A DNA stretch of 64,000 nt from Podarcis vaucheri (taxonomy: Eukaryota), in the NCBI GenBank assembly GCA_965113315.1, contig OZ220368.1; one strand, written 5' to 3'. Of the stretch, positions 1 to 64,000 are shown one piece after another. The notes beneath the pieces are model-generated. The model searched no databases and was not told the origin of the DNA. It saw only the letters and a list, made by a program, of their open reading frames with translations. The position numbers and the translations under genes are program-made. Numbering within the stretch: the first letter of the stretch is position 1; each line of letters starts with the position of its first letter.

Positions 1-1699
1 GCTTAGTCTGAAACCAAATGACTGATCAATGTGTGCTATATTAGTGGAATTAATCAGTCTCGGAATCGTATTTGTGGATTTGTACATGCAGAGAAAAACC
101 AAGTTTACTGTGCACTAATGGTGCTGAGGTGTGTCCCCCAAAAATTGTCCTACAGGGTGCAGCAGAAGAGCCAATATGGCACCCTCAGATATTGCAGACT
201 CCAACTTTCACCTGCTCTGACCACTGGCCATGTTGGCTGGAGCTAATAGGGGCTGTAGTCCAGGCCATTGGAAGGGCACCACATTGGCTACTCTGGATAA
301 CAGAATGTGCAACTAATATAATCCGTCAAAACGCTGATTAGTAAATTTTGGGGCCTGCTTGTTTTCTTTGTTTTATTAAGATCAAGCCGCCTAGACTACG
401 TAAGCTTGGAGTGGAAAGGAGGAGTTGTCACAGGGTGACAGGGAGAGAGAGGCAGCTTCAGTGATGGAATGTTTAGGGAGAAATGTAATTAGCAAGTTGC
501 TTCACTTTTATGCCCTGCAGAGTGCCTAGCAAAATACTGGTGCAAATGAAATGTGTGACGCATTTCTCCTAAAGCTCCCATTAAATATAATTAAGGTAGA
601 TTGCACCCTAAAATGTGTAGTAGTTGTAGAAATTGTAAATGAAACTGATATAAAGTGCTAGTGCAAAGAGGTGCCCAGTTTGGGCAAAGTGGCGAGGGGA
701 TGTGTGTTCAAAAAGTATGATCAGAATTCAACACACCTTTCTTCCTAGTTGGAAGATCAGCTCAGACCATTATATAATAGTCTAGTTATCATACTGTAAG
801 AAAAATTCTATTGTCTTAGCTACCAGCCCTCCATAACTACACACCTTATCAATAGTTGTGACATTACCTAATAATTGTACGGAGACTATGATTTTTTCAC
901 TTCAGTATGTAAGCAAATTGCTGGTTAAATATGTTAAGAGGGACACGTAGGAGCTTTTCTATGAAACTGGAGTGTTCTTAATGAGGGCCACCCACAACGT
1001 TCTGTTCTGAACTTCCTTGTTCTGGAATAAGAGATTACGTGTTGCCCTAAAATAAAGTCTTATGTAACCACTGGTACCCTGAACATGAACTCTTGCTGCC
1101 TTTGGAACATATTGTTTGCCTTTTCTATCGGCCTCATAACAAACCATAACTGGCCCTTTTGCATACCAAAAGCCTAGACTTCATGGATGCTTTTCACAAA
1201 GTATATTTAAGAGGAAATAAAATCTTCAGTGACTTGCTTTGCTTTGGCCCAGCCCTGAAACTACAAGAGTTAAAGTACAACATTTGCTTTGATGGGCTAC
1301 ATTACATAAACTGAGTAAGTATGTTTATAGTATTTTAGTTTCATAGGCATGGGTCACTTTTAGATGGAAAGCATTCCAATTTCTTTGCTCACTAATACCC
1401 AAAACAGATTACATTCCTTAGAGCCCAAGACACATACTGTAGTCACTAATATTTTCAAATATGAATCTTCATTAACAAGCTACACCATTTCTATGCAATG
1501 TACTTTGTGGCAAGAACAACAAATGAAGATTGATTTGCAAGCACATTTTGTCAAGATGTAAATGATGTGTGTTAAATACTTCCCCGTCCTGAGTAGCAAG
1601 CATCTGAGTTGGTTAGAATAATTCAATTAAAGTAAAAGCCCAGCCAATGCTGCTATTGTTCATGTACGCAAAGGCAGATTATGTATGTAACAGCAGTGG

Positions 1700-19490: not shown

Positions 19491-19622
19491 CAGTTTCCCC
19501 CAACCTAGTGCCTTTCAGATTCCCCCACCATGATTATAAATCCCATCAGCGTATCCAGTCACCAGGGATGATGGGAGTTGTGGTCCAACAACATCTGGAA
19601 GGCACCAGATTAGGGAAGGCTG
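19491..19622. mobile_element. Palindromic hAT MITE (ACTACA...CCCA family), older copy; further degenerate copies ~170-295, 25625-25730, 58555-58693, 60795-60876
   Basis: CAG...CTG ends, TSD GTTTAGAG/GTCTAGAG, GATGATGGGAGTTGTGGTCC arm. Confidence 0.75.
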
Positions 19623-25296: not shown

Positions 25297-26421
25297 GTAC
25301 AGGGATGAGCTGAAAGGTACTCTAAACCTATAGCTGAGGTCCAATACCCTAGGACACTTGATAACCCGTCCCAGAGTAGCCAACAGTAGCTCTCGGAACT
25401 AGAATGAATTAGTGGCCACAGCAAAGGGAATGGAATTGATCACACCCACACAAAAATAGTACTGCAGTGATACCTGCGCTTTCCCTTCCACACCAAAGAA
25501 TGGCAACTAGTTCATACGTATTGGCCCTAAACACAACATTTACAAGAGGCCTAGGATGGTGGTTTTGTATGTAAGTAACTGGCATGGTAGCCACTTCCAG
25601 CTTTGATTCATTTCTGCACCCTTCGCACAACCTAAGGACCTCCAGATCTTTGAGCTACAGTTCCCTTCATCCTTCACCATTGGCTGAGCTGATGGGAACT
25701 ATAGACAAAATATCTGGAGGTGAAGGCTGACTACAGCAGTATCTCAGTGTTCCCTCAGAAAAGGGCCCCAAAGATAACTGCCAGATTGTGCGCAAGATGC
25801 TTTGCTTCCCCTCTAGCATTCCTCCTGCCCTGTCACTCTGGAGCCAGTTCCACTTTGAAGTATAGAAAAAGCTACAGAGGCTACAGCTGCTCATATGTTC
25901 TAAACTGTTTCCTAATTCCCCAACTAATGACAGGAAAACAGCTGTTGCCATTGATTGCACTCAGAAGTAGGGCAGGACGGGCAGCTCGGAGGTGCACCTA
26001 TTATTGCCGTGCCTGGTGGTTACTCTTATATGGCAAACTTTATTTAACGTAATTTGTTAAATAAAGAATCTGGGCTTGTGAAGCTGCAGCCATGGGGTAG
26101 TTCAGCTTCATGACCCATTTCTTCCAAATCTGTTTACGTATTTATTTTGGGGAAAATTCTTCACATCCAGGACTTGGATAAATGGATCCGATTGTGGCGT
26201 TTCTCCTTCATACCATGGGCATTATCACATTCCAGTACAGAGGCAGAAAGGTTGCCCTAGGCAATTTCTGGGATGGCCAACGGTTCTCATGGTGCTCTCA
26301 CATGGCTCAGTTATATTATAGTGCATGTTGCATGCTGCTGGTACATTAGAAGCAATGTGTATAGGGAGGCAATACTTAATCTGGACCAATGAGTATCTCT
26401 TTTCTCCTGCATGGCCCACAG

Positions 26422-31238: not shown

Positions 31239-31488
31239 CACTCATACCTTGGTTTTTGAACAGCTTAGTTCTCGAACATTTTGGCTCCCAAATGCTGCAA
31301 ACCCAGAAGTGACTGTTCTGGTTTGCGAACTATTTTTGGAAGCTGAACATGTAACGGGACTTTCACGACTTCTGATTGGCTTCAGAAGCTTCCTGCAGCC
31401 AATCAGAAGCCGCGCTTTGGTTTCTAAACATTTTGGAAGTTGAACGGACTTCCGGAACGGATTCTGTTTGACTTCCAAGGTACGACTG
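31239..31488. mobile_element. Tc1/mariner (Tigger-like) MITE; related copy ~63381-63623
   Basis: TA flanks, right end CCAAGGTACGACTG, shared internal CTTCCTGCAGCCAATCAGAAGC. Confidence 0.8.
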
Positions 31489-31583
31489 TATTCCAGTCCC
31501 TATAGTGGGAGAGCACTGATTGAGTAGCAGTAGCAGCCCCTGTGGAGTTCTGCAGTGTGTGCTACACACCCTTGCTCCTATAG

Positions 31584-34634: not shown

Positions 34635-34876
34635 CAGTGGTACCTCAGGTTACATATGCTTCAAGTTACATACGCTTCAGGTTACAGACTCCGCTAACCC
34701 AGAAATAGTACCTCGGGTTAAGAACTTTGCTTCAAGATGAGAACAGAAATCGTGCTCTGGCGGCACAGTGGCAGCAGGAGGCCCCATTAGCTAAAGTGGT
34801 GCTTCAGGTTAAGAACAGTTTCAGGTTAAGAACAGACCTCCAGAACGAATTAGGTACTTAACCCGAGGTACCACTG
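34635..34876. mobile_element. Tc1/mariner (Tigger-like) MITE, family A
   Basis: TA TSD, TIR CAGTGGTACCTCRGGTTA; closely similar to 45739-45964 and 49991-50229. Confidence 0.92.
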
Positions 34877-35706
34877 TATAAGGCTTTAAGATACCAAGAG
34901 TTCTTTGAGCTTCAAAACCTCAAAAAAAAAAAAAAAGTATTTTGGTATGGCCCATAATTATGCCAGATGAAGTAAAATAAAGCCTAATTGGTATTTTTGC
35001 AACCTTAAAAAGGCAAAGGACCCTTGACAGTTGAGTCCAATTGCGAACGACTCTGGGGTTGTGGAGCTCATCTCACTTTACTGGCCGAGGGAACCTTAGT
35101 TTGCTTTAAAACTTGGGCTAATAGCAAAGAGGACCATACCCAGAATGGATCCTGTTAGGATAGGTTCTTAGAATTACTGTTGCTTGCACATCATTGTTGC
35201 TGTCCTTGCATGTAGTGCTGATCCTGCTAGTATATTTTGATTAGTGGCAGGCAGTCCACAGACTCAGCTGATGTCTGGCTTTTTGATGGGCAGCATATAT
35301 ACTCGCCAATCATCCACAAAAGCACTATTATAATCTTTGGAGAAATGAAACATTTGCCAGTATTTTTAACAACTAATGGTCCCTATCAATAAAATAATAC
35401 TTTCACTCCTGCGAAGCATAATCCACCAGCAATTATTTCCCTTGTGCAGTCCTCTCACAACTCTCCTTCAGGGTAAAACTAGATGTTATGGAGAAGGGGT
35501 TCTTAAACTTTCTATTCCCAATGTTCACCTGAGACAACAAAATTCCTGAGGCTCGCTTGCCACAAAATGGTGTAGGGGCAGAGCCAGTCAAAAATTGGAG
35601 GCAGTGTCTGGCAAGTCAGCTGGAAATTGCAGACAACACTTTTTTCTTTCTTCTTTGTCAGGTCAAAGGAATTGCATAGGTAAGATGACCTCAGGAGGCT
35701 CTTGCT

Positions 35707-35843
35707 CAGGCTTCCTCAAATTCAGCCCTCCAGATGTTTTGAGACTACAATTCCCATCATCCCTGACCACTGGTCCTGCTTAGATAGGGATCATGGGAGT
35801 TGTAGGTCAAAAACATCTGGAGGGCCGAGTTTGAGGAAGTCTG
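35707..35843. mobile_element. Palindromic hAT MITE carrying ACTACAATTCCCA, ~1.5 kb upstream of the ZNF76 promoter
   Basis: TIR CAGGCTTCCTCAAA...TTTGAGGAAGTCTG; closely similar to 46417-46550. Confidence 0.88.
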
Positions 35844-36618: not shown

Positions 36619-37199
36619 GTTAAGACACTACAAGTGGTTTGTAGTGAGGTTTACAGTGAGGAAAGTGCTTGTTTCAGTAGAGTAAATGAGTCCTAAAAGG
36701 TACACAAAACAGTACATGCTTGTCACCAGTGGCACTTATCTCATGAGTGCCCATGGCACTTAGAACTGTAGTTGGAAAGGACTCTGAAGGGTCATCTAGT
36801 CCAACCCCCTGCAATCCAGGAATCTCAACTCAAGCTTGACTGCTTATAGTCCACCATACAGCTCTCTCAAAAAATAAAAGTCACTTGGGAAGGAAAATCT
36901 AATTTTTCCAACAAAAATTATTTGTGGCTTGAAGAGGATTTCTTTGCAACACAATCACTACCTTAAAACTAAGCCCAGGGCTGAGCGCTGAGGTGGTCAA
37001 ACTTCCTGACCGCACCAAATAATTCAGGGTGGTAAAAACAAGAAAGGAATTATGAGCTGCTCCAGTGGCATCTTCACCAAATCAGGTGAATGGGCATTAA
37101 AATGTGAAATGGCAAATACCTCTTCAATAGTTTCTCCTTTAATACGACTTTGCACCATATGATGTGAACTAATTGAAAATAAAATTACAAGAGAAAATT

Positions 37200-37950
37200 T
37201 CTGGTGTGATGTCCGCTGTGCGATTCTTGCCGTTTGCGTTCTACCAAGACACAGGAACTCGATCTGTGGTTTTCGCCACGTGGCCAGCAGAGGGAGCTGC
37301 TCACCCATGACATCGCTTCATTTCGAGGCCTACAGTACTTTGTTTTGGTCGCACCTGCAAAGGTGGGTATATAAATAGAAGGAAGGGCAGGTGCTTCGCC
37401 GGGATATCTGCGCATGCCGAAGAATCCGGGGCATGCGCACTAGCAAGCACCGTGGGGCTTTGCTTTCCTTTTCCGGGATTTGGAAGCGACCTTGGCGGGG
37501 CCCCGGAACCTGGATAACAAAAACGACGAGCAGGTTGGCGAAGCTGGGTAAAGCTTCGTCATACAGGTTGCAGGGCAGGTGGCTGCGGGCGAGGCCTGGT
37601 GCATGGCGGTCAGGCGGCGGACTCGGCCCTCCACAGGTCGGTGCCGGCAGGGAGGCGGGGATGAGATGGGGAGATGCTCCTGTGGGGGGTAGATTTCCAT
37701 CTCCTCCGCCGAGACGCTGCACCCTGGGAGAGAAAGAGGGGGTGCCCCCGGGTCCCCTCCACCAGCAGAGCCCCCATTGCCCCCTCCTACGTCCCAGAGC
37801 CCTCCTGTTTTGCACGACTTACCCCTCAGATTCCTGCCCAAGAAGTAGGAGCCCCGCTTTCTTTTTTTCCTTCCCGGGCGCCTTGCAACAGCTGCTTGGC
37901 TGGCAGAAATTCGAGTGGAGATCTCCCCGACTGTGTGGGGAAGCTGTACC
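37200..37950 (+). promoter_or_regulatory. ZNF76: CpG island / ZNF76 promoter and non-coding first exon
   Basis: sharp CpG enrichment; E-box GCCACGTGGC 37275-37284, TATATAAATAG 37368-37378, two inverted NRF1-like TGCGCATGCC sites 37409-37418 and 37430-37439, candidate donor GG|gtaaag at 37548. Confidence 0.8.
37281..37298 (+). promoter_or_regulatory. Candidate CTCF site TGGCCAGCAGAGGGAGCT
   Basis: 13/14 match to core CCASYAGRKGGCRS at the upstream edge of the CpG island. Confidence 0.55.
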
Positions 37951-39393
37951 TGTTGGGTTTCTGCCTGCCTAAATCAGAGGAGCTCTTTCTCCATGGAGGG
38001 GACTATAGATGACGTTGGGGACCCCTTTCCAACTCTACCATTCCGTGGGGAAAGGTGGCTGGCTCCCTTTTCTGCGAGGGCTCTTGCGTGCAAGCAGAGA
38101 TGAAGCGACCTGATCATTTCTCATCAAGCGTGATGCGTGCTGGTAAAATGTATGGCCAGGAAAATAAAAAAGTGACCACAGATGGTTTTCTGTAGAATAT
38201 CTCCCAGCTCCTTTCCCGATTGGTAAAATCTCTCCCAGTTCAGCATCCCTCACCTACGTGGAGCCCCAGTTATATCTCTTCAATCCAAATGCTAACACTT
38301 CATCCGTGATTTAGGTTTGGTTGCTGAACCCTCATCTATAACCCTTGGTCTGTTAATGTACGATACCATTTGTACCACAAGACCCCTGCTAGTAAAATTT
38401 TAGGGAATACATTGGTCAACAGAATTCACCAAAATAAATTCTGTCATTTCCCTCTTTCCTAAAGCTTTCCACAAAAAAGTAAAGCTTCCTTACAAGTTCT
38501 GTTGATCTTATTGTATGTTTAAGCAAAGAATATGGAATGATGCCCTTCAGGAGGCTACTTAGCAAATGCCAATTATTTTCCTGGCAACAGGAAAGGGGAG
38601 AGGAACACAAATGTATAAAAAGGGCAAAAAAAAAAAAAAAAAAAGTTTCTGTAGCTCCATGGCAGATCATGCAGAATGTCCTAGGTTCAATCAATATATG
38701 GCATCACCATATAGGCCTGGGAAAGACCTTAGCCCCTGAAACCCATGGAGAGCCACTGCCAGTCAATTTAGAAAATCCAGAGCGAGATTGTCAAGACTCC
38801 ATAAGGCAGCTTTTTGTGTCCCAAATTATGGAAGAGTGACAGAAAGGAGACTACTTGCAATGCTAGCCTGAGTTTCTTCCAGTTGTATGACTAAAGTTTC
38901 ACCACAGGAGGTGGGGGGGGGGTAGTTGAAATGGCTTAATTGACCAGATTCAGTTTGCAAACTGCCAGTTCATCACTCCAGACTGAAGTTGGTGCTATGC
39001 AGCTATTGTCTTTCATGGGTCTGAGGGTGTAGTTGTGCCAGTTTATGGACCAAGAGATTTTGACGAGTCAGTAAAGCTGCAGTCTCATGTTTACAACATT
39101 GGCCAGCCAGATATCTTTGGGAAAAACCACAAGTAGGACATGAAGCCAACAGTACTCCCCTGTTGTTTGACCTGTATCAGAGGTAGGCTGTCTCCGAACA
39201 TGGAGATTTGTCATGGCGAATAGCCTTTGGTAGACTTACATTCTAATCCTGTCCAAAGAATTCTACTTGGATTACTTTTTATATAAATGTGAAGAAGAAG
39301 TTTATATATAACTTGCTGTTTATGTTTTAGTTCTAACATGGAGAACCATCTTATATGTGGAATACATGTCTAAGGAGCCACCACCAGAGCGCA

Positions 39394-41769: not shown

Positions 41770-42990
41770 GTAACGATCAGTCTTTGAACCTTCCTTTCCA
41801 TATACTAGGTAAAATCATTCATACACAGTGGGTAGTATTCAATGATAACGAGTCGCTTGATTAAAGTTAATAAATATTACTAACTTCAGTTAATTCATTT
41901 CAGTGCATCAACTCTGAGTATAACTTAGTTGAATGCAATCCAGTACTCTAATAAATGTGATCACAGCTGTGTGTGTAGCTATTGGGCTGGACTCAACTAA
42001 ATTGTTGCACTAGCAGGAGCCAGTGAAACAAGTCCCACTAGCACCATGGGGCTTCATCCTCCCCATATGCCTCCCAGTTGGCTCTGAGGGTTGGGGAAAA
42101 CTTCAGAACAGTGCATGGGGGGAGAAGATGGGAGCTCATGCTGTCTGGGAAGCAGAAATGCTTGTGCTGACAGAACAATCATAATACTGTGACACTGAAT
42201 TCCTCCCATAGTCTTTTTAAACTTACACCTCTGTGACTTAGAATATTTATTGTTACCTCACCCTGAGTCAAGTCATAAAACAATTCAGGTTAGTGATGAA
42301 GAGAGAGAGCTCTGAAGTAAACTCTCGGGGGGGGGGGATCAGATGTGCAGAGAGATGGTGTGGCTCTTTGCATCACTGCCAAACCTTGAGTTGGAGAACA
42401 GAAAGAGTCAGCTTAAGAGCTCTCTTCTCCCCTCTCTCAGGATCAATCCTGATTTGGAGAGATAATTGAAGACTACCCTTGACTGGTTTGGATATCATGG
42501 TAAATGGTGGTTTAAGGAAACTAGGTAACTTTCTGTTAAGAGTTGGAAGGGCAAGTGCTTGAGCATATCACTCACTCTTGATGCTTCACAGTATGGTTTG
42601 GTAACAGGGAATGTGTTCTGTTTCAGTATCTTATCAAATCCTTTCCCTGTAGCCATACAAAATCATCCTATCCAGATTGACAAATAGCTACCAAGCAAGT
42701 AGATTGTTCCTTATTGCTCTGCAAACAATTCAAGGATGTGTGGAAATCATTCTGTGGTGATTGTTCCACACAGCTTTTGATTGTGGAATGTGTTTCATGT
42801 TGCAATTTTCAGCCATAAATAGAGTTGGATTCTATTGGTGTTTGCAATGATTGAATTTTGAACTGCCGTGAAGATTTTGCCATTGATGCTTTTAACTCTT
42901 CATCTTTTTGCCAGCTCTAAATGATCAAGAGGTAGATAAGTAGCAATTAGAGCTGACATGTGCTACTACAGTGTTTGTGGTCCCCTCCAG

Positions 42991-43193
42991 AGGGTTATGA
43001 CCCCAACACCTTAGAAGCAATCCAGCTGGAAGATGGATCCACAGCTTTCATTCATCGTCCTGTCTCCCTGTCAGTGGGTAGCACCACACTGACAGTGCAA
43101 GCAGATGTGGGCCTGGAGGAATTGGCTGTAGGAGAGAAAGATGATTCCTTTGAACTTGATTCCATTACTGCCCTCAAGGACTATGCTAGTAAG
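42991..43193 (+). CDS. ZNF76: ZNF76 exon (EGYDPNTLEAIQLEDGSTAFIH...ALKDYASK)
   Basis: tccag acceptor, AAG|gtgagg donor, 203 nt. Confidence 0.94.
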
Positions 43194-45386: not shown

Positions 45387-45738
45387 GTAATATTTGTGTA
45401 TGTATCTTAATTTTCATATTTCATTAACGGGAAACACCATACAGGCAATCCTCAGCATGGTATACTTTCACAATCTGTGGGGGTGGTGTCACTTGGTTGA
45501 ACTTCATTATGTGTAACAGACCATCCCAGTGACACATTACTGCATTGGGGGGATCAACATGGAAACTATACTAGGCTTGCTTGCTTGAACCAGTTGTCAT
45601 CTGTAAGAAGGCCGGTTAAAAGAAAATATGTATTGAACTACTAAAAACCAGTAGAGTGAGATTTGAAGTTCCCTTCCCAATTGCTTAAAAGTACTCTTGC
45701 AGTGTAATCCTATACCTTTTTGAAAGTAAACCCCACTA

Positions 45739-45964
45739 CAGTGGTATCTCGGGTTACATACGCTTCAGGTTACAGACTCCGCTAACCCAGAAATAGTGCT
45801 TCAGGTTAAGAACTTTGCTTCAGGATAAGAACAGAAATCATGCTCCGGCGGCGAGGTGGCAGCAGGAGGCCCCATTAGCTAAAGTGGTGCTTCAGGTTAA
45901 GAACAGTTTCAGGTTAAGAACAGACCTCAGGAACGAATTAAGTACTTAACCTGAGGTACCACTG
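45739..45964. mobile_element. Tc1/mariner MITE family A nested in a small palindromic element (~45699-46013)
   Basis: TA TSD, TIR CAGTGGTAyCTC; host halves ...AATCCTATAC..AGTAAACCCCAC and TTCAATGGGGCTTA..GGATTGCAGC. Confidence 0.9.
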
Positions 45965-46078
45965 TATATTCAATGGGGCTTATTACCTAGCAAGTGTGTT
46001 TTGGGATTGCAGCCTTTGCTTTATGCCACAAAGTGAGAGATACCCATTCCTTTATATTTCCTTCTTCTTATTTCCCAG

Positions 46079-46416: not shown

Positions 46417-46550
46417 CAGGCTTCTTCAACCTTGGCCCTCCACGTGTTTTGAGACTACAATTCCCATCATCCCTGACCACTGGTCCTGCTAGCTAGGGAT
46501 CATGGGAGTTGTAGGCCAAAAACATGGAGGGCCGAGGTTGAGGAAGCCTG
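46417..46550. mobile_element. Palindromic hAT MITE carrying ACTACAATTCCCA, inside a ZNF76 intron
   Basis: TIR CAGGCTTCTTCAACCT...AGGTTGAGGAAGCCTG, exact TSD CCTTAAAT. Confidence 0.92.
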
Positions 46551-48237: not shown

Positions 48238-48652
48238 CAGTGGTGCCCCGCAAGACAAAATTAATTCGTTCCGCAATTTTTGTCGTCTAGCGAATTTTTC
48301 GTCTTGCGAAGCACGAAATCCCATAGGAATGCATTGAAATTCAATTAATGCGTTCCTATGGTCAAAAAAAGTCCAAACAAAGCCAAATTTGGTACAACAA
48401 CAGTTTATTAACTGCTCTTTAAAGTCACATATACTGTAAAGAGCAGTTCAAAAATTTAAGGGAAAATAAATTAACTTTATAAACAAAACATGTCTTTGTT
48501 TTTAGTCAAAGAAAAAAAGTCGCGAGACGTTTTCGTCTTGCGAAGCAAGCCCATAGGGGAAATTCGTCTTGCGAGGCAAATCGCGAACGGAAAAAACTTT
48601 CGTCTAGCGAGTTTTTTGTATTGCGAGGCATTCGTCTTGCGGGGCACCACTG
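48238..48652. mobile_element. Tc1/mariner (Tigger-like) MITE, family B
   Basis: TA TSD, TIR CAGTGGTGCCCCGCAAGAC, repeated TTCGTCTTGCG subterminal motifs. Confidence 0.92.
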
Positions 48653-49990: not shown

Positions 49991-50229
49991 CAGTGGTACC
50001 TCAAGTTACAAACGCCTCAGGTTACAAACGCTTCAGGTTACAAACTCCGCTAACCTGGAAGTTACCTCGAGTTGAGAACTTTGCCCCAGGATAAGAACGG
50101 AAATTGTGTGCTGGCAGCGCAGCAGCAGCAAGAGGCTCTATTAGCGAAAGCATGCCTCTAGTTAAGAACAGTTTCAGGTTAAGAACAGACTTCCGGAATG
50201 AATTAAGTTCTTAACTAGAGGTACCACTG
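49991..50229. mobile_element. Tc1/mariner MITE family A (more diverged)
   Basis: CAGTGGTACCTC...GAGGTACCACTG-TA. Confidence 0.88.
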
Positions 50230-50984
50230 TATGTATATAGTGTCTTAAAATAATTTGTGTGTGAAAGAAAGCTAGCAGTGGTTAACTTTGCATCCAATGT
50301 TTACTTTGAAAAGTTACGTGTCTTTAATATTATCTTTCTCTCTGCCTAATTGCACTTAGATGCTTGCTTTGTCTTGGGAGCCAGTTCGTAGGCCAGAGAT
50401 TAGCAAGTGGACAGTCCATAACCAAATCCATCTCCTTGGATAATTCTGTTTGGCTCTTCAGTTGCCAGAGACAGAGGGTGTCCAAAAGTGGAGTTAATGA
50501 TGTCTGTGACAATACGGGGCAGCATCCAGTGAACTTGTTCCACCGGTGCACCATAACCAACCAGTGCTCATTCTGCAGGCAGGGCTGTTTGTGAATACGT
50601 CCTTAGTGCTAATCTCATATTACTATTATCACTTTTCATCCATGTACCTGACCATCACTTGTGTGTCTCCTAACCAAATACATAATTTTGTGCCATTTGG
50701 GTTCCTTTATTTCACTTGGAAACACCAGTAGGCAGCTTCAGGCAATTGATTTTGGGTGTCATGAAATGTTAGCAAATTATTGATTATTCTGATTTTTTAT
50801 TATATATTTTTACTGCCAGGGAAGGAAAGAAGTGCTTGTGAGATTTTCTGCCTCACGCCTCAAAATTATTTGACTTTAGGTATTAGTCACCATGACTTGG
50901 AGCAGTGGGTGGTGGAGATGGGACCACAACTCTATTTAACTGCCAAGCAAATTTGAGAGTGATGCCGTCTTTTTCTCTTTCCAG

Positions 50985-52717: not shown

Positions 52718-52880
52718 GCTACATACTATATACCATGAAAGCACATTATTTCCCTCAAAGAATTCTGGGCACTAGTTTAAGTTAGGCTGCTGGGAATTGT
52801 GATTCCTCAAGGGTGAACTCTTTGAGGGAAATAGTGCTTTGAATGTGCTTTAAGGGTACATATAGTGTGTAACATAGCCT
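52718..52880. mobile_element. Palindromic MITE upstream of the DEF6 promoter
   Basis: AAAGCACATTATTTCCCTCAAAGA ... TCTTTGAGGGAAATAGTGCTTT inverted arms. Confidence 0.6.
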
Positions 52881-53149: not shown

Positions 53150-53760
53150 TCGAATACAAATTGGACTCCCGCTAGTGTTTAAAGACGGGCGAACTTCCTG
53201 TCTTAAAAAAAAAGATTTGTATTCATTGTTCTTTGCTCAATTTCACTGAACAACGAAAAGGGGGAAGGAAAAAGAGCGAGAAGGTGGCGCGCAAGCTCCC
53301 CGAGCGTCGAGGCGACAGGAGGCGCTGCGGCTCCCGGGCGCCCTCGCTGCCGGCCGCGCGGCGCAAAAGCGGCGCGTTTCCTGAGCGGCCCGAGGGAGGA
53401 TCCTCCTCGCCCAGCCAGCAGACTCTGTCCGCGGGGCGCTCGAGCCATGGAGTTGCGAGCCGAGCTTCTGAAGTCCATCTGGTACGCCTTCACCGCCTTG
53501 GACGCGGAGAAAAGCGGCAAAGTGTCCAAATCTCAGCTGAAAGTAAGTGGAAGCGGGGCGAGGGAGCGAGAAAAGGCGGCGGAGGCGGCTGCTTTCTCCC
53601 TCAGAGCCCGCGGCGGGCTTGGGGCGCGCACTCCGCCTGCCCCCAGCAGGGCTGCCGGGCGCTTTGGGAGCCGGAGGGCAACTTCGGGAGCGAAAAGAAA
53701 AGAAACCCCCCTCACAGCTGTGGTGGCGACTTAGGGTTGTGGGATTGCTCGTGAAGGCGG
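53150..53760 (+). promoter_or_regulatory. DEF6: DEF6 CpG-island promoter
   Basis: CpG-dense; ETS-type ACTTCCTG near 53193, E2F-like GCGGCGCAAAA near 53358. Confidence 0.8.
53447..53542 (+). CDS. DEF6: DEF6 first coding exon ([32 protein letters not shown]); exon 2 not found in the window
   Basis: gccATGg Kozak, AAA|gtaagt donor, phase 0; KSIWYAF matches DEF6 rather than SWAP70; gene order SCUBE3-ZNF76-DEF6. Confidence 0.93.
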
Positions 53761-55220: not shown

Positions 55221-55356
55221 TAGGCATGGCCAAACTTGGCCCTCCAGATGTTTTGGGGCTACAATTCCCACCATCCCTGACCACTGGTCCTGTTAGCTAG
55301 GGATGATGGGAGTTGTAATCCCAAAACATCTGGAGGGCCAAGTTTGGCCATGCCTG
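55221..55356. mobile_element. Palindromic hAT MITE (ACTACA...CCCA family) in DEF6 intron 1
   Basis: long near-perfect inverted arms AGGCATGGCCAAACTTGGCCCTCCAGATGTTTTGGG. Confidence 0.9.
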
Positions 55357-57590: not shown

Positions 57591-60500
57591 GAAAACATCT
57601 TCTGAAATAGTTGAAGATCTGTGATTTCAAATTTTTATGTGGCTTTTACTGTACATACAGAATTGTGGTAAACTGATATATATTGGCCAGTGGTCAGATT
57701 ATGGAAACTGTGGTCCAGTAATGTCTAGAAGGCAACTGCTGCAATAGGTGATAATTTTCTCAGCATGGGGATACAGTGCGTGCCACTCATTTGTTCACCT
57801 GCTATGCAGCTGTTAAAAGTGCAGGAGCCCTGCTGAAGAGGAAAGTGGTAATTCTAAGTATCTGATAACGTAAACAGGCTCCTTTTTGTGGTGCTTCCCC
57901 ACCCCCCATTTATGGTTATGCTGTGCCTCACAGATATGTTTCCTGTGGGTATGCAGAAATGATGGTTCCAGTGTCAGCATTAAGATTTTTCTTCCTGTTT
58001 AGTTGCATACAGCTCTCGCTTCTTTAAAAATTTACATGGTTAGGATTGTGCATCTGTGAAACCTGGTGATTTCAGAGCTGGTGTTCATAGGTAAAATATT
58101 TTTTGAGTTGACTGGAGACCTTAGAAATCCACGTGGAGTAAATTTGAACTTGGTGGCTATAATGAACCCCTGATTCCTGTAAGATTGTTTGCTGCGGCAC
58201 TGCATTTGAGTATGTGGTACTTCCATGGTTAAAGCAATGCTCACAACTTGGTGATAAATGCTGCTCAGCTTACAAAGTACTTACGGCCATAAATTGAGAT
58301 TATGGCTACTACTCTGAGACTGCTGTTCTAAGCATGCTTACTATGGAACCTGTTGAACTTGATAGAGATTACTTTTGAGTAAACATGCTTAAGATAGTGC
58401 CATTAAAAAAATGATTCCTTAGAAAAATATTGTGAAACCAAACTCAGGTTTGCACACAGCTGAACAAATCCATGAATGATAATTTCATGGCTATAATTAT
58501 AGCTTAGTTGCTGGAATGTTCAGTGGTGGTGTATCTCTGAGGTCTGCCTTAGACCAGGGGGGTGGCTAACCTGTGTCACTTGAGATGGTGTTGGACTACA
58601 GCTACCATGAGCCTCGGCTAGTATGGCTAGTGGTCACAGATGATGGGAGCTGTAGTCTAATAACTCTTGGAGGGCAACAAATTAGCCACATTGGACTATA
58701 TTCTAAGAACAAACAGGAGATGACTACTTCCATCATGCTCTAAAACAGCGGTTCTCAACCTGTGGGTCCCCAGATCTGCTCTAAAAGATGCTTTATAATG
58801 TGTCAGATTGTTTGTCCAGCTAGGCCAGTGTTGTCTGCTTTTGACTGGCAGGGTTCAGGAAGAGACCTTTCTCATCACTTACTATGTGATAAGAAAACTG
58901 GAAGTACCAGGCATTCAAACAGAGTACCTTCTGCAGGGAAATCATATGTTCTGCTTATGGTCTCTTCTGTGATAAAACCGTAAGTGTACCTCTTGACTTG
59001 TCAATGGATTTAACCTGTTTTCAAAGCCAGTCATCAGGCGAGGGACCTACAGTGGCCATGTTTGAACATAGCAAGAAGCCAGATTTTCTGATTTACCTTA
59101 GTTTACTGTGATTGAGCAGTGTGCTAGTGCACCCTGCCTGGTTGTTTCTGCTTTGCTCTTAGTCTGGCAAGAGCAAAATAAGCAAACTAGAAAACCTTGG
59201 TATCCTATTAGGTCTGAACCAGGTATTGTGGATTGTTTCTCTTGAACAAGCCATGATCACTAGCTAACCTTAAAACATGGCCTGTTGTTGACCTGCTGGC
59301 ATTGGCTTGTTAGGGAACAGCAAAATATGACCCCTGGTTTGATTTTAATGGAAAGCCAAAGCTTCCTGGTTTGTTTGCTCTGCTCATGCCAGGGGGGAAG
59401 CAGAATGGAAGTAATTGGGCAGCACGTACCAGCATGTTGCTCATTTACAGTAAGCCACAATAAGTCAGAAAATATTACATGGGAATGCAGTCAGTGTTAA
59501 GAATATGAGTGTCTCTCTGCTTGTGCAGAATGCCTTTTTTCCAACATCTGCTTTTAAGTGAGCAGGACTTCAAGAGTGAAGTATGGGGTTTTGAGTAAGG
59601 CTTGAGCTGCCAATTCTTTTATTTATCAAAATTATTACCTATTTAAAACTGCATCGCCCAGTCTGCTTACCTCTAGAGCCCTTTTCTCATAGCAGGTTCA
59701 CTAATAAATTTTTAGAGCCAACATTATAGCAAAGTCTATGCGAACAGAGGTTGCAACTGCGTTTGTGGCTTCCTGGGCTGTTTAGTAAGGGGGATTTTTT
59801 GCAGGCAGGGAGCCACCTTACTGTTGCCGCTGTGTCTCCTTAAGCTGTGCATGTTGCAACAAGGCAGTTTTCACGTGATTTGGACTTTCCTCCTTTTAAA
59901 ATCCAGTAGTTTTTGCAGCTTATGAATCTTCTGATCTAACTCATCAGTGATTATTTTTTTTAAAAAAAAAACCTTTTATCTTGCAGCAAAATTATAGTGG
60001 GAAAGCCAAGTAGGCTTTAATTTACTGTTAACTAGGGCAATACCTGATTAGTGAAATCATAGTCACTTAATTGTATAGATCGTAGTTTATTTTAAATTTG
60101 CATATAAGAAGAACACAATGAATCTAAATAAATTGCTTGTTCTATAAGTGGTGCGCGTGTATTGCAGGAAATATCTTGGACAGATTTTGCATTTTCCTCC
60201 TAACTCACTAGAGGGAATGCCTTTTCTAGAATGGTGGTTGCCATGTGCAGTTTTTATAAGTACTTTTACAAAAAAACCTAATTTTAAAATGTGTTTCCTG
60301 GTTTATCAGAGGCACCTTTTTTTAAACTGCCACGCTAAATGCTGAAGTTCTTACCAGAGTGGAACAGGTATTATGTGGCAGCTGTAGATGGAATTACTGC
60401 ATTGCACTTTATATGGGGCTTCCCTCGCTGTTGATCTAAGAGTAGGTTATAGAGAAAGTTGCAGCACAATTGCTGTCAGGAGTGAGAGTCTGTCATCGTA

Positions 60501-62129
60501 TTGCACTCCTGCTCAGAGATCAGTGCTGGTTGCTGATTAGTTACCAGTCCAAGTTCAAAGTTTTGCTATTAGTATATAAAGCACTTAACAGCTTTGGACT
60601 AATTTAAACAGGAACCTTTGCTGTATAGTTTTGGACACACACAGTATAATTTAGTTACCCATATTTTACTGATTTTATCTATATTTTAATACCAATCTTT
60701 ACTTTTGCTTTTTTAAACGGTTTTGTGGGTTTTAACTGTTTCTATGGAGAGCTCTTTGATTAAGCGGTTGATAAATCTCTCTAAATAAAGCAATCCCTGC
60801 CCATTGGCAATTCTAGCTGAGGCTGATGGGATTTGGAGTCCAGTGACATCGGGGAGGCACCCCATTGGCTACTCCTGTGTAATATGACATAATAGTATAA
60901 TAGTAACAAGTGGGACCAGCAACAAAACATTCAGGACACCCCATTCCCTCCTCATCTTCCACCCAGTCAGTCATCATTCCAAGTCAGTCTCCCCCTCCAA
61001 ATATCTTGTGTGCTTCTGCAAATTTTGGAGTTTCCCCATTCAATGAATGGTGTCGTTTTGCTACATAAGGATCAACATTCAAAGAATGTGTCCACCATTG
61101 CTGTATGAGATATGCTGTTTGCACGATGGACAACAGTGGGTCACTAGACCCTCCTCTCCATCACCCTTCTCTGGGCTAGTCCTTTGCTGGCATGTGGGGT
61201 TGTAAAAAGGGGCAAAAGGAGGAGATGCTGAGCCATCACCATCTGATATGCAATTCTAACTAGGTGATTGAATTAAATATAGAGAGCTTAACTAAGCTGA
61301 CGGTGGTTAAGGTTACCCAACAGAAGTTCAAGAATACCATAATGTTTCACCGACACAATTCAAATCTACTTTTAAGTGTATTCTGAATTCCATTGTGCAG
61401 CTTCTAAGCATGGGCAGGAGTCAAGGGACCTGTTATAATCTACAGCAGAAGGGAAAGCTATTTTTGCCCAAACTTTCAAGTAACCTTCGGCCATGCTCCT
61501 GGCTGTTGATCATAAGCAGTTTTTATGCACAGTTATTCATTACAAAACAGGGCAGGGAGCCAAGCAATAGAAGCAGCATTGTTATTTTATTTCATAACAT
61601 CATTTTTATTCATTTTAATCTTTAAACTGTTTTATAAGGTTATGTTGAGATATATCTTATGTTTACATTAGATTAGAGTCTATGGCATGCAGCAATTGCA
61701 GGTGTACTCTACACTGTATTCAAGAAAGATTAGCCCAGGTAAAATGTGTGTACAGTATAGGATTGCAGCCTAGATTATATATCTTCTTGTTATCAATGAC
61801 CTGGAATGATGTGTGTGTATGTCCTGTGACACAAATGTCCATATGGTCATGTGGAAGAAGGAAAAAACTTTGCAGCTCCTCAGTAACCCCAAGATGCTTG
61901 GTAGAGGAGCTTGTTGTGTTTGGGTTCTTCTCCAGGAATGTCCATACCATAACCAATCACAAATAATGTGCTCTGACAAACTGGTTTCTGCTTGTGTTTG
62001 TTTGAAGTGGGGAGCTTCTTGTGACAGACGAAGAACCCAAAGACTCAAGCTGTGACTCATCCTTGAAATTTGCCTGATAGCTGGTGGTCTTCAGCTAAAA
62101 GAATAGGTATGTGCTTGGTATTACTTATA

Positions 62130-62209
62130 CAGGGTGAGTCCTTTAAAAGAGGCCCCGTGGATACAGAGTACACATGTTCCATGGGGCCTCTTTTAAAAGA
62201 CTAACCCTG
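62130..62209. mobile_element. 80-bp hairpin Tc1/mariner MITE
   Basis: TA-CAGGGTGAGTCCTTTAAAAGAGGCCCC ... GGGGCCTCTTTTAAAAGACTAACCCTG-TA. Confidence 0.85.
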
Positions 62210-62214
62210 TATAA

Positions 62215-63070
62215 CTACCCTAATTGAGAAAGCCTAGAGGTGCTAGCAGGTGAGGTGCTAGATGATTGGAGATGGGCAAATGCTGCCCCAATCTTCAGAA
62301 AATTGGGATGGTATGGGTGGGAAGAAAGATCCAGCAAACTGAAGACTAGTCAGCCTGACTTTCATACCAGGGAAGATAACCAGAACAGTCTGTAAAGTAC
62401 TCAGTCTTTTTGTTAATGTTGTGGTTGGTAGGAACCAGCATGGATTTGTCAATAAGTAATCATGCCAGACTAATCTTATCTCTCTTTTTTTATTGGCTTA
62501 CTGGTTTAGTGGATTTTGGAATGTGTTGTGGTCATAGTATATCTTGAGTTCAGCAAAGCATTTGATAAACTCCCCCATGATATTTTGGTTAGCAATTTGG
62601 TTAAATGTGATCTAGTTGATAGTATTGTCACAACTGTTGGGAAATGATGCCCAGTGATTCCCAAAGCTTTCTCATTTATGGTCGTTCATCACATTGGAGC
62701 AAAGTGGGGGGAGACAGAGCAGCACAGGACTCTACTCTCTCTCTCTCCCCCTCTCGTCAATTACTTAGGGATGGAGTAATTTCGTTGTCCCCGAAGGGGG
62801 CAATGGCAATAAAGATATTATTATTATTATTGTTATTCCTCATCAAGTTTGCAGATGGTGCAAAACTGGGAGGGATAACTTTACACCTCCAAGATGGGAA
62901 TAAAACGCAAAATAAATTTGACATCTGCAGCGGAGGAGGGATACATAGCTTGGCAGCAATACATGTGAAATGATCTTGGGATTGAACTTGGTCAGAAACT
63001 GAATGTGAGTCATCAGGGTGATGTGGCTTCAAAAAAGTCTAATGCCATTTTAAGGGTTTCAATGTAACTA
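62215..63070 (+). mobile_element. Degraded CR1 LINE reverse transcriptase fragment
   Basis: GEVLDDWRWANAAPIF, LVSLTFIPGK, RNQHGFV..SCQTNLIS, VYLEFSKAFDKLPHDIL, IKFADGAKLGG, with stops and indels. Confidence 0.85.
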
Positions 63071-64000
63071 TAGGGCAATATTCAACTAAATAATTCCACG
63101 AGTGGAATGAATTCAGCTTGTGCAATAGCACTCCCCTTCCGCTGTCCCCCTGTGCAGGCCCAGCACAGTCCCCAAATCAGCTCTGTAAGGTTGGGGAAAC
63201 CCTGAGAACAGTCGATGGGGAGGAGAGGGGGAAAACTCCCACTGTGCAAGAGAAAGTTGTCTGCTCATGCAGGAAGGTACTTTGTGCTACATTGAACTAA
63301 GTTTTACAAGCCATGGGAAGTAATCGTTTCACTTTATTCTGCACTAGACAGACACCATCTGTATCCAGGTTTGGGCACTGCACTTTGTACCTCGGCTCCC
63401 GAACACCTTGGGAGTTGAACATTTCAGCTCCCAAACAATCGAAAACCAGAAGTGATTGTTCCGGTTTTCAAACATTCTTTCAGAAGCCGAACATCCGACG
63501 GAGCTTCGAATTGGTTGCAGGAGCTTCCTGCAGCCAATCAGAAGCTGCACTTTGGATGTCAAACAGTTCGGAAGTCGAGTGGACTTCCAGAACGGATTCT
63601 GTTCGACTTCCAAGGTATGACTGTATAGACATGTTGGGATGGGTTCAGAGGAGGGCAACAGAAAACAGGTCCTGTGATAAAAGCTTGAAGGAACTGGGAA
63701 GAGAAGACTGGGGTGAGGGGGCCATGCCTGTTCTGATATGGAGCAGCTCTTCACAATCTTGAGCGCATAGGTATTTTAACTGGAGGGGCCAGGGATTGAA
63801 CCTGGGACCTCCTACTCTGTGCTACTGAGCTACAGCCCCTTGTTCAGGGTTTAAGTTGTGTTTAGAGCCCATCTTTTTATCTCCTCTCTTTCATTTCTTA
63901 GGTGGAATTCAGATTGAGAGTGAGTGACTTACCCAAGGCCATACCATTTTTTGTATCTTATTGCATTCAAATACCACCTTTTCCTCCAAGGAGCCTTAAG

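What the first reader, a model, noticed from the sequence alone, without database searches (positions are those of the whole stretch)
35707..35843. MITE family carries paired ZNF143/ZNF76 (Staf) binding motifs and sits upstream of and inside ZNF76 itself
Seen: GACTACAATTCCCATCATCCC on one arm (35744-35756; also 46454-46466; GCTACAATTCCCA at 55258-55270) and an inverted CTACAACTCCCATGATCCC on the other arm. Established: ACTAYRNNNCCCR followed by an ATSC core is the extended Staf-binding site used by ZNF143, its paralog ZNF76 and THAP11/HCFC1, and ZNF143 autoregulates through such sites. Inference: an abundant squamate transposon (about 8 copies in this window) may have spread dimeric ZNF143/76 sites genome-wide, acting as decoys or new enhancers. 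The copies 1.5 kb upstream of and within ZNF76 could form a transposon-derived feedback loop. Because the family is so common, proximity to ZNF76 may be chance.
Basis: partly seen in the sequence, partly recalled or inferred. Interest (0 to 1): 0.7.

Follow-up and report, generated by a model that had tools for sequence, protein, structure and literature searches.

The report
Lizard transposon carrying ZNF143-type binding motifs
This is one copy of a very common small lizard DNA transposon whose arms match the binding motif of the housekeeping regulators ZNF143/ZNF76/THAP11, and its position next to the ZNF76 gene is most likely chance, although such transposons probably supply most of this genome's roughly 100,000 motif matches.

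Summary
Window 35707-35843 is a non-autonomous hAT (Buster/Charlie-type) MITE with 58-bp inverted arms and an 8-bp target duplication, close to Anolis hAT-N1_AC. The left arm matches the published ZNF143/ZNF76/THAP11 SBS2 site; the right arm is a one-base variant. The pair follows from the palindrome.

The feedback-loop idea is not supported:
- The clan has about 85-95 loci per Mb, so 9 in this window and one near ZNF76 are expected (P=0.10-0.16; P=0.17 within 2 kb).
- Only one copy lies inside ZNF76.
- Motif positions decay like the rest of the element in 49 copies (p=0.71).
- CpGs decay about 6-fold faster, which suggests methylation.
- In human cells ZNF76 mRNA does not respond to ZNF76, ZNF143 or THAP11 over-expression.

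What remains of interest:
- The genome holds 99,348 RR-M4 motifs against 4,429 in the reversed control.
- Two further DNA-transposon families, sharing little but the motif, also carry inverted pairs.
- The clan's core persists while its termini change.

Selection on the motif at the transposon level is suggested but not robust (p=0.34 when ascertained motif-blind). Transposon-borne SBS2 has precedent in mammalian MLT1J. Binding is untested.

The parts
35707..35843 (.). Focal hAT MITE, 137 bp (subfamily consensus 136 bp)
   Evidence: 6 substitutions and a 1-bp insertion against the consensus of 49 copies
35707..35764 (+). Left inverted arm (58 nt)
   Evidence: pair I6
35786..35843 (-). Right inverted arm (58 nt)
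   Evidence: pair I6
35699..35706 (+). Left target-site duplication; its partner at 35844-35851 matches at 6 of 8
   Evidence: L001
35744..35768 (+). SBS2-type site on the left arm: RR-ACTACA, CCCA at SBS positions 3-6, C at 12; 18 of 25 identical to the published SBS2 gel-shift probe
35782..35806 (-). SBS-type site on the right arm, one-base variant (CCTACA); 16 of 25 identical to the probe
46417..46550 (.). Second copy of the same subfamily, in a ZNF76 intron about 40 nt before the apparent 3' splice site; perfect 8-bp TSD; forms a strong hairpin as RNA
   Evidence: (-91.5 kcal/mol, z -12.5)
55221..55356 (.). Sister-subfamily copy with different termini, inside the downstream SWAP70/DEF6-family gene, not in ZNF76
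164..288 (.). Old clan copy
19499..19622 (.). Old clan copy
25621..25729 (.). Old clan copy
57681..57746 (.). Old clan fragment
58565..58691 (.). Old clan copy
60789..60869 (.). Old clan fragment
37001..38000 (+). ZNF76 CpG-island promoter region; RNA reads first appear in the bin 37493-37769; no SBS-type match under my pattern in 36900-38300
42990..43193 (+). ZNF76 exon used to name the gene

Best explanation
The element is a non-autonomous hAT MITE whose left arm matches the ZNF143/ZNF76/THAP11 SBS2 motif, and it most likely landed near ZNF76 by chance and has since decayed as a probably methylated, functionless passenger. Shown: MITE anatomy, 8-bp NNNTANNN target duplications, copy number, motif match, an equal decay rate of motif and non-motif positions, and CpG decay. 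Inferred: a Buster/Charlie transposase supplied in trans cut and pasted it. Inferred: the motif entered the ancestral core once, perhaps from host promoter DNA, and appears twice because the element is a palindrome. Inferred: ZNF143/ZNF76 could bind the left site as naked DNA, but most genomic copies are closed and unbound.
For: TSD of at least 7/8 in 37 of 49 copies chosen only by their ends, with T at position 4 in 35 of 37 and A at position 5 in 34 of 37; this is the Buster signature (PMC3517528). Length, arm length and TSD match hAT-N1_AC. 1,667 copies have both 13-nt ends perfect. 57 clan hits in 600 kb, 0 in the reversed control. Window count P=0.16; a copy within 2 kb P=0.17, within 17 kb P=0.80. 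Substitutions: 92 of 2,450 in the two 25-bp sites against 94 of 2,646 elsewhere, p=0.71. 41 of 98 CpG sites are TG or CA, about 6 times the non-CpG rate per base, and both ZNF76-side copies have lost the left CpG. Copies are not enriched near CpG-rich DNA: 5 of 49 against 54 of 300 bins, p=0.22. Mouse B2 SINE ZFP143 motifs are unbound (PMC11687419).
Against: The tight motif is improbable by chance (about 1e-6 per 136-bp element), yet it recurs in a second family that shares nothing else, and a looser M4 pair sits in a third; passive capture explains this only if promoter DNA is captured often. In 83 clan copies of mixed age the informative motif columns were better kept than other columns (0.85 against 0.77-0.80, p=0.006-0.02). 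Human MLT1J copies with SBS2 are bound in vivo outside promoters (PMC3627581). The focal copy keeps its left site intact and appears present in three related organisms. The decay test would miss selection on a small minority of copies; its most informative positions ran slightly lower (0.028 against 0.036, p=0.20).
Confidence: 0.6

Rival explanations
1. The motif helps the transposon, not the host: elements that recruit ZNF143/ZNF76 or THAP11-HCFC1 would stay accessible in the germ line or have their ends brought together, so motif-bearing masters amplify more. The copy at ZNF76 would still be neutral.
For: Three families with different ends carry inverted M4/SBS2 pairs. Families 1 and 2 agree at the consensus positions and differ at several degenerate ones; BLAST found only 7-mers between their consensus sequences. 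In family 2, found by its terminus, informative columns 0.91 against 0.80 elsewhere, p=0.002, n=22. The clan core persists while termini vary (0.62 against 0.77-0.85), including a sister subfamily with the hAT-N1_AC/SPIN-type end (839 arms). THAP11 is reported to loop DNA carrying its motif (PMC10329844).
Against: With motif columns masked during ascertainment the family-1 excess vanished: 0.797 against other internal columns, permutation p=0.34; against degenerate columns p=0.054; n=66 (this design is biased against the motif). The focal subfamily amplified to thousands of copies with a degraded right-arm ACTACA, and older masters changed the T of 'AT' on one arm. Columns are not independent, and the family-2 alignment profile came from motif-selected copies. 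The hAT transposase loci I checked showed no motif-bearing ends of their own.
Confidence: 0.25
2. A sizeable share of copies is bound in vivo and acts as a sink for ZNF143/ZNF76/THAP11 or as new promoters and enhancers across the lizard genome.
For: 99,348 RR-M4 sites against 4,429 in the control, against about 4,700 ZNF143 peaks in human cells. The site itself has no CpG. MLT1J precedent. Recognition helices of lizard and human ZNF76 are nearly identical.
Against: No motif conservation among young copies; CpG decay in families 1 and 3; no enrichment near CpG-rich DNA. The M4 motif is reported to favour positions just upstream of start sites, away from distal enhancers.
Confidence: 0.1
3. The copies upstream of and inside ZNF76 form a transposon-derived feedback loop on ZNF76.
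For: Both copies keep an intact left site. Contigs of three related organisms run from unique flanks into both arms of the upstream copy. ZNF143 autoregulates through its own sites.
Against: Proximity is expected by chance. ZNF143's loop uses vertebrate-conserved sites at +80 and +133 from the start site, not young repeats kilobases away. Human ZNF76 mRNA was unaffected by over-expression of ZNF76, ZNF143 or THAP11. Both copies lost a CpG by deamination.
Confidence: 0.04

Closest known systems
hAT-N1_AC of Anolis carolinensis (PMC3014272, Table 1; passages read)
   Same: 135 bp, 57-bp inverted repeat, TSD NYYTARRN, more than 1,000 copies. A sister subfamily in this genome starts with the same 20 terminal bases (C or T at position 4), is about 138 bp and is 75-80% identical to the focal subfamily in 10 of 12 loci checked; the other 2 are interrupted.
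   Different: The focal subfamily has different termini. The passages I read do not mention transcription-factor motifs.
Buster/Charlie family of hAT transposons and their MITEs (PMC3517528 passages; SPIN and hAT-HT1-3 termini in PMC3014272)
   Same: CAG...CTG ends, 8-bp nnnTAnnn TSD, no coding capacity. Clan termini resemble several listed Anolis TIRs.
   Different: No autonomous partner sharing the core was found. The inverted arms are much longer than the usual 5-27 bp hAT TIR.
SBS2 / M4 / Ronin-binding motif of ZNF143, ZNF76 and THAP11-HCFC1 (PMC3627581, PMC3082894, PMC10329844; passages)
   Same: RRACTAYRN followed by CCCR at positions 3-6 and C at 12 (left arm). The convergent pair spans 62-63 bp; four host CpG-rich loci here have convergent pairs of 65, 73, 75 and 86 bp.
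   Different: Not in a CpG island or near a start site, not conserved, ATCC rather than ATGC, T rather than G after CCCA in most copies; binding untested.
MLT1J retroelements carrying bound SBS2 sites in mammals (PMC3627581 passages)
   Same: A transposon family that spreads SBS2 sites outside promoters.
   Different: MLT1J is an old retroelement with ChIP evidence. This is a young DNA transposon clan with paired sites, a very large motif load and no binding data.
Mouse B2 SINE ZFP143 motif matches (PMC11687419 passage)
   Same: Large numbers of repeat-borne motif matches.
   Different: B2 motifs were shown to be unbound; here binding is unknown.

Membership tests
Buster/Charlie-type hAT MITE | Terminal inverted repeats starting YARNG/CAG | tested here: met
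   58-nt arms, CAGG...CTG
Buster/Charlie-type hAT MITE | 8-bp target-site duplication with central TA | tested here: met
   37 of 49 copies at 7/8 or better; T4 in 35 of 37, A5 in 34 of 37; focal copy 6 of 8
Buster/Charlie-type hAT MITE | Short, non-coding, high copy number, uniform length | tested here: met
   135-137 bp; 1,667 copies with perfect ends
Buster/Charlie-type hAT MITE | Autonomous partner with matching ends | tested here: inconclusive
   None found among 30 of 64 hAT-domain matches fetched, 20 extended stretches and 30 of 117 matches to one transposase fragment
hAT-N1_AC (Anolis) | 135 bp, 57-bp TIR, NYYTARRN TSD | tested here: met
   136 bp, 58-bp arms, matching TSD profile
hAT-N1_AC (Anolis) | Published first 20 TIR bases | tested here: not met
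   Not in the focal subfamily; present in a sister subfamily, 839 arms
hAT-N1_AC (Anolis) | Internal sequence identity to the Anolis consensus | not testable with these tools
   No supplement held
SBS2 site (ZNF143/ZNF76/THAP11) | CCCR at SBS positions 3-6 and C at 12 | tested here: met
   Both arms
SBS2 site (ZNF143/ZNF76/THAP11) | RRACTAYRN immediately upstream | tested here: met
   Left arm exact; right arm a one-base variant, 0 of 49 exact M4
SBS2 site (ZNF143/ZNF76/THAP11) | Promoter-proximal, CpG-island location with conservation | tested here: not met
   About 1.65 kb upstream, outside the CpG island; no excess conservation
SBS2 site (ZNF143/ZNF76/THAP11) | Binding in vitro or in vivo | not testable with these tools
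ZNF143-type autoregulatory element | Vertebrate-conserved sites within about 150 bp of the gene's own start site | tested here: not met
   Young repeat kilobases away; no SBS-type match in 36900-38300 under my pattern
ZNF143-type autoregulatory element | Gene responds to its own product | not testable with these tools
   Negative for human ZNF76; lizard untested
PIF/Harbinger MITE (considered for family 2 only) | 3-bp TWA target duplication and GG-type termini (recalled definition) | tested here: inconclusive
   Flanks are T/A-rich (T in 20 of 39 at the first base, A in 18 of 39 at the third), but none of 5 complete copies has identical 3-bp flanks

The most novel reading that the evidence does not exclude
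Unrelated DNA transposon families in lizards have converged on paired ZNF143/THAP11 sites because recruiting these ubiquitous housekeeping factors, one of them itself transposase-derived and able to loop DNA, boosts their mobilisation. One motif-bearing MITE core has survived successive transposase invasions by changing its termini, leaving about 95,000 excess sites that the host must silence.
Probability: 0.2. Interest if true: 0.72.

Novelty: new member of a known kind. Interest (0 to 1): 0.36.

Why it matters
For ZNF76 it probably does not matter. Practically, motif-enrichment analyses in lacertid (and probably other squamate) ATAC or ChIP data are likely to be swamped by transposon-borne ZNF143/THAP11 motifs, which exceed the reversed control 22-fold. 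If the motif proved to aid transposition, it would name a host factor behind MITE success and explain why short non-autonomous elements outlast their transposases. That is testable with a standard excision assay. It would also bear on the published idea that SBS2 sites were spread by transposons.

Tried and rejected
Autonomous partner: not found. The one intact hAT with TSD (L239) has other ends and no motif.

First per-position test gave an apparent TCCCA excess (p=0.0007). This came from 6 mis-oriented copies and vanished after correction (p=0.28).

Master-level motif conservation in family 1 looked significant but did not survive motif-blind ascertainment.

Rfam: only sub-threshold miRNA-hairpin matches (best 41 bits against a cut-off of 80), rejected as generic hairpin hits.

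PDB search with the last two zinc fingers gave no ZNF143/ZNF76 structure among the 60 of 78 hits shown.

No RNA holder was listed among indexed runs. The RNA run laid (X23, about 12% read) covers the MITE only with reads that probably come from other copies, so it says nothing on expression of this copy.

Presence of the intronic copy in relatives was not tested.

No weight-matrix scoring was possible. A host-derived matrix was not used because those sites had been selected on the motif.

Family 2 as a nested family-1 insertion: rejected, since the orientation is opposite and nothing beyond the motif is shared.

Literature searches listed no paper on ZNF143/THAP11 motifs in reptile transposons. 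I saw only the top 2-30 listings of each, subscription journals, Repbase and Dfam are not covered, and PMC4648815 was not held.

Full report
OBSERVATION. 35707-35843 is a palindrome with 58-nt arms. The gene downstream is ZNF76: one exon is 100% identical to two Podarcis muralis proteins and 96-97% to Zootoca and Lacerta proteins named ZNF76, so the host is probably a lacertid wall lizard. SCUBE-type exons lie upstream (name recalled) and a SWAP70/DEF6-family gene starts near 53390 (DEF6 recalled from synteny). The ZNF76 CpG island is at about 37001-38000. Sparse RNA reads of a relative first appear in the bin 37493-37769, so the element ends about 1.65 kb upstream. One more copy (46417-46550) is intronic in ZNF76. 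The copy at 55221 is in the next gene.

WHAT IT IS. A non-autonomous hAT MITE of the Buster/Charlie type. Of the 30 closest loci, 21 have a TSD of at least 7/8. Of 49 copies chosen only by their 13-nt ends (the first 50 listed of 1,667, one left out because it was already held as L015), 37 have such a TSD, with central TA. That is the Buster signature (PMC3517528, passages). Size, arm length and TSD match Anolis hAT-N1_AC (PMC3014272, Table 1 passage). A sister subfamily here carries the published terminal 20 bases (C or T at position 4; 839 arms) on the same core, 75-80% identical in 10 of 12 loci. Mean divergence from consensus is 3.6%. Contigs of three related organisms run from unique flanks into both arms of the focal copy, so the insertion probably predates their split; no single contig spans it.

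ABUNDANCE AND CHANCE. In 60 evenly spaced 10-kb stretches an iterated HMM found 57 clan hits, several from one tandem array, and none in the reversed control. That is about 85-95 per Mb, or roughly 140,000-150,000 loci by extrapolation. The window's 9 loci compare with 6.1 expected (P=0.16; 0.10 without the array). A copy falls within 2 kb of any point with P=0.17 and within 17 kb with P=0.80. Young copies are not enriched near CpG-rich DNA: 5 of 49 against 54 of 300 bins.

IS IT A ZNF143/ZNF76 SITE? By published definitions the SBS has CCCR at positions 3-6 and C at 12, and SBS2 adds RRACTAYRN (PMC3082894, passages; PMC3627581, passages). ZNF143 tolerates much degeneracy outside TGGGA (10.1101/2024.05.13.594008, passages), and ZNF76 binds the same sites. 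The left arm meets all of this (18 of 25 to the gel-shift probe). The right arm meets the SBS core but reads CCTACA, so 0 of 49 copies have M4 on both arms. Lizard and human ZNF76 recognition helices are nearly identical. Binding to naked DNA is therefore plausible but untested. The pairing needs no explanation beyond the palindrome. Genome-wide there are 99,348 RR-M4 matches against 4,429 reversed and 42,429 of the clan's ATCC form against 1. The canonical ATGC form occurs only 108 times; of 30 examined, 6 are in CpG islands and 4 in clan copies. In the sample, 29 of 44 M4 matches lay in clan copies.

IS IT USED BY THE HOST? The sequence says probably not. Substitution rates in the two 25-bp sites (92 of 2,450) equal those elsewhere (94 of 2,646), p=0.71; the most informative positions ran at 0.028 against 0.036, p=0.20 (six polymorphic or CpG columns and the selected ends excluded). 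41 of 98 CpG sites are TG or CA, about six times the non-CpG rate per base, which implies germline methylation (inference). Both ZNF76-side copies lost the left CpG. ZNF143's autoregulation uses conserved sites at +80 and +133, and in the same study endogenous ZNF76 mRNA was unaffected by over-expression of ZNF76, ZNF143 or THAP11 (PMC3936768, abstract and sections 18-19). I found no SBS-type match in the ZNF76 promoter region under my pattern. Precedent points both ways: MLT1J copies with SBS2 are bound, whereas B2 SINE motifs are not (PMC11687419, passages).

WHAT GOES BEYOND THE FINDING. (1) Across 83 clan copies the termini vary (0.62 mean conservation) while the core persists (0.77-0.85), and several termini resemble Anolis SPIN and hAT-HT TIRs. 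This suggests one core used by successive transposases (inference). (2) Family 2 is a palindromic element of about 180-670 bp among the 5 complete copies, with about 30 loci per Mb and 5,612 exact motif matches. It carries divergent SBS2 pairs, has Harbinger-like ends (classification inconclusive) and shares only the motif with family 1. In 20 of 22 copies found by the terminus (2 dropped below 13 of 21 matches) the variable columns were the degenerate ones; informative columns 0.91 against 0.80, p=0.002. (3) Family 3 is a 1.4-kb non-autonomous hAT with CpG-island-like cargo and a divergent M4 pair: 728 exact hits, TSD in 19 of 19 resolved copies of 20, CpG decay 6-fold. (4) Host CpG-rich loci carry convergent pairs of 65, 75 and 86 bp (3 of 12 loci) and 73 bp (L287), close to the MITE's 62-63 bp. 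Against a selective reading: the family-1 excess disappeared with motif-blind ascertainment (p=0.34; p=0.054 against degenerate columns; n=66), and the focal subfamily spread with a degraded right site. Earlier unchecked notes of this scan report similar motif-bearing transposons in other genomes; they are leads, not support.

MECHANISM. Best (0.60): cut-and-paste by a Buster-type transposase in trans, chance insertion, silencing and neutral decay, with the motif as captured cargo. Rivals: the motif aids transposition by recruiting host factors (0.25; THAP11 looping from PMC10329844, passages); a genome-wide sink or enhancer source (0.10); a ZNF76 feedback loop (0.04).

NOVELTY. The element is a new member of a known kind, and transposon-borne SBS2 is in print for mammals. 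Nine searches (listings only) showed no paper on such motifs in reptile DNA transposons. PMC12676858 (passages) reports frog MITE enhancers and its main text has no hit for 'Staf' or 'ZNF'. PMC7154149 was read in passages and PMC5006282 only as a listing. The Anolis supplement, if it holds consensus sequences, could settle identity with hAT-N1_AC but was not readable. Interest 0.36: the ZNF76 story is ordinary; the scale and the recurrence across families merit one cheap experiment.

Noticed in passing
L067:3242-3715, L090:3089-3282, L226:1422-1650; fragments probably at window 14227 and 52729-52800: Family 2: a palindromic, Harbinger-like repeat with two or more divergent SBS2-type motifs, about 30 loci per Mb, unrelated to the hAT MITE outside the motif.
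   Followed up: partly
L300-L319 (for example G000:C1 near 598,700): Family 3: a young 1.4-kb non-autonomous hAT with 64% GC, CpG-island-like cargo and a divergent M4 pair; 728 exact hits; CpGs decay 6-fold.
   Followed up: partly
L171, L178, L188, L189, L191, L193, L287: Host CpG-island loci with canonical SBS2 sites, four of them as convergent pairs spanning 65-86 bp.
   Followed up: partly
L083:8425-8955: Tandem array of about six or seven copies of the MITE core, a possible MITE-derived minisatellite.
   Followed up: no
L239 (G000:C28:28731000-28738000): Apparently intact 4.9-kb hAT element with a 615-codon open frame and a perfect 8-bp TSD; a near-identical sequence lies in L150/L238.
   Followed up: no
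window 46417-46550: The intronic copy ends about 40 nt before an apparent ZNF76 3' splice site and folds into a -91.5 kcal/mol hairpin in the pre-mRNA; it could affect splicing or editing.
   Followed up: no
window 34635-34894, 45723-45982, 49991-50247, 31245-31491, 63388-63626, 48283-48646, 62122-62217: Other repeat families with inverted or internal repeats, unrelated to the finding.
   Followed up: no
window 37409-37440: Two GCGCATGC-type elements in the ZNF76 promoter, NRF1-like by recall.
   Followed up: no
L129:921-1337: A focal-subfamily MITE sits directly against, probably inserted into, a family-2 element.
   Followed up: no
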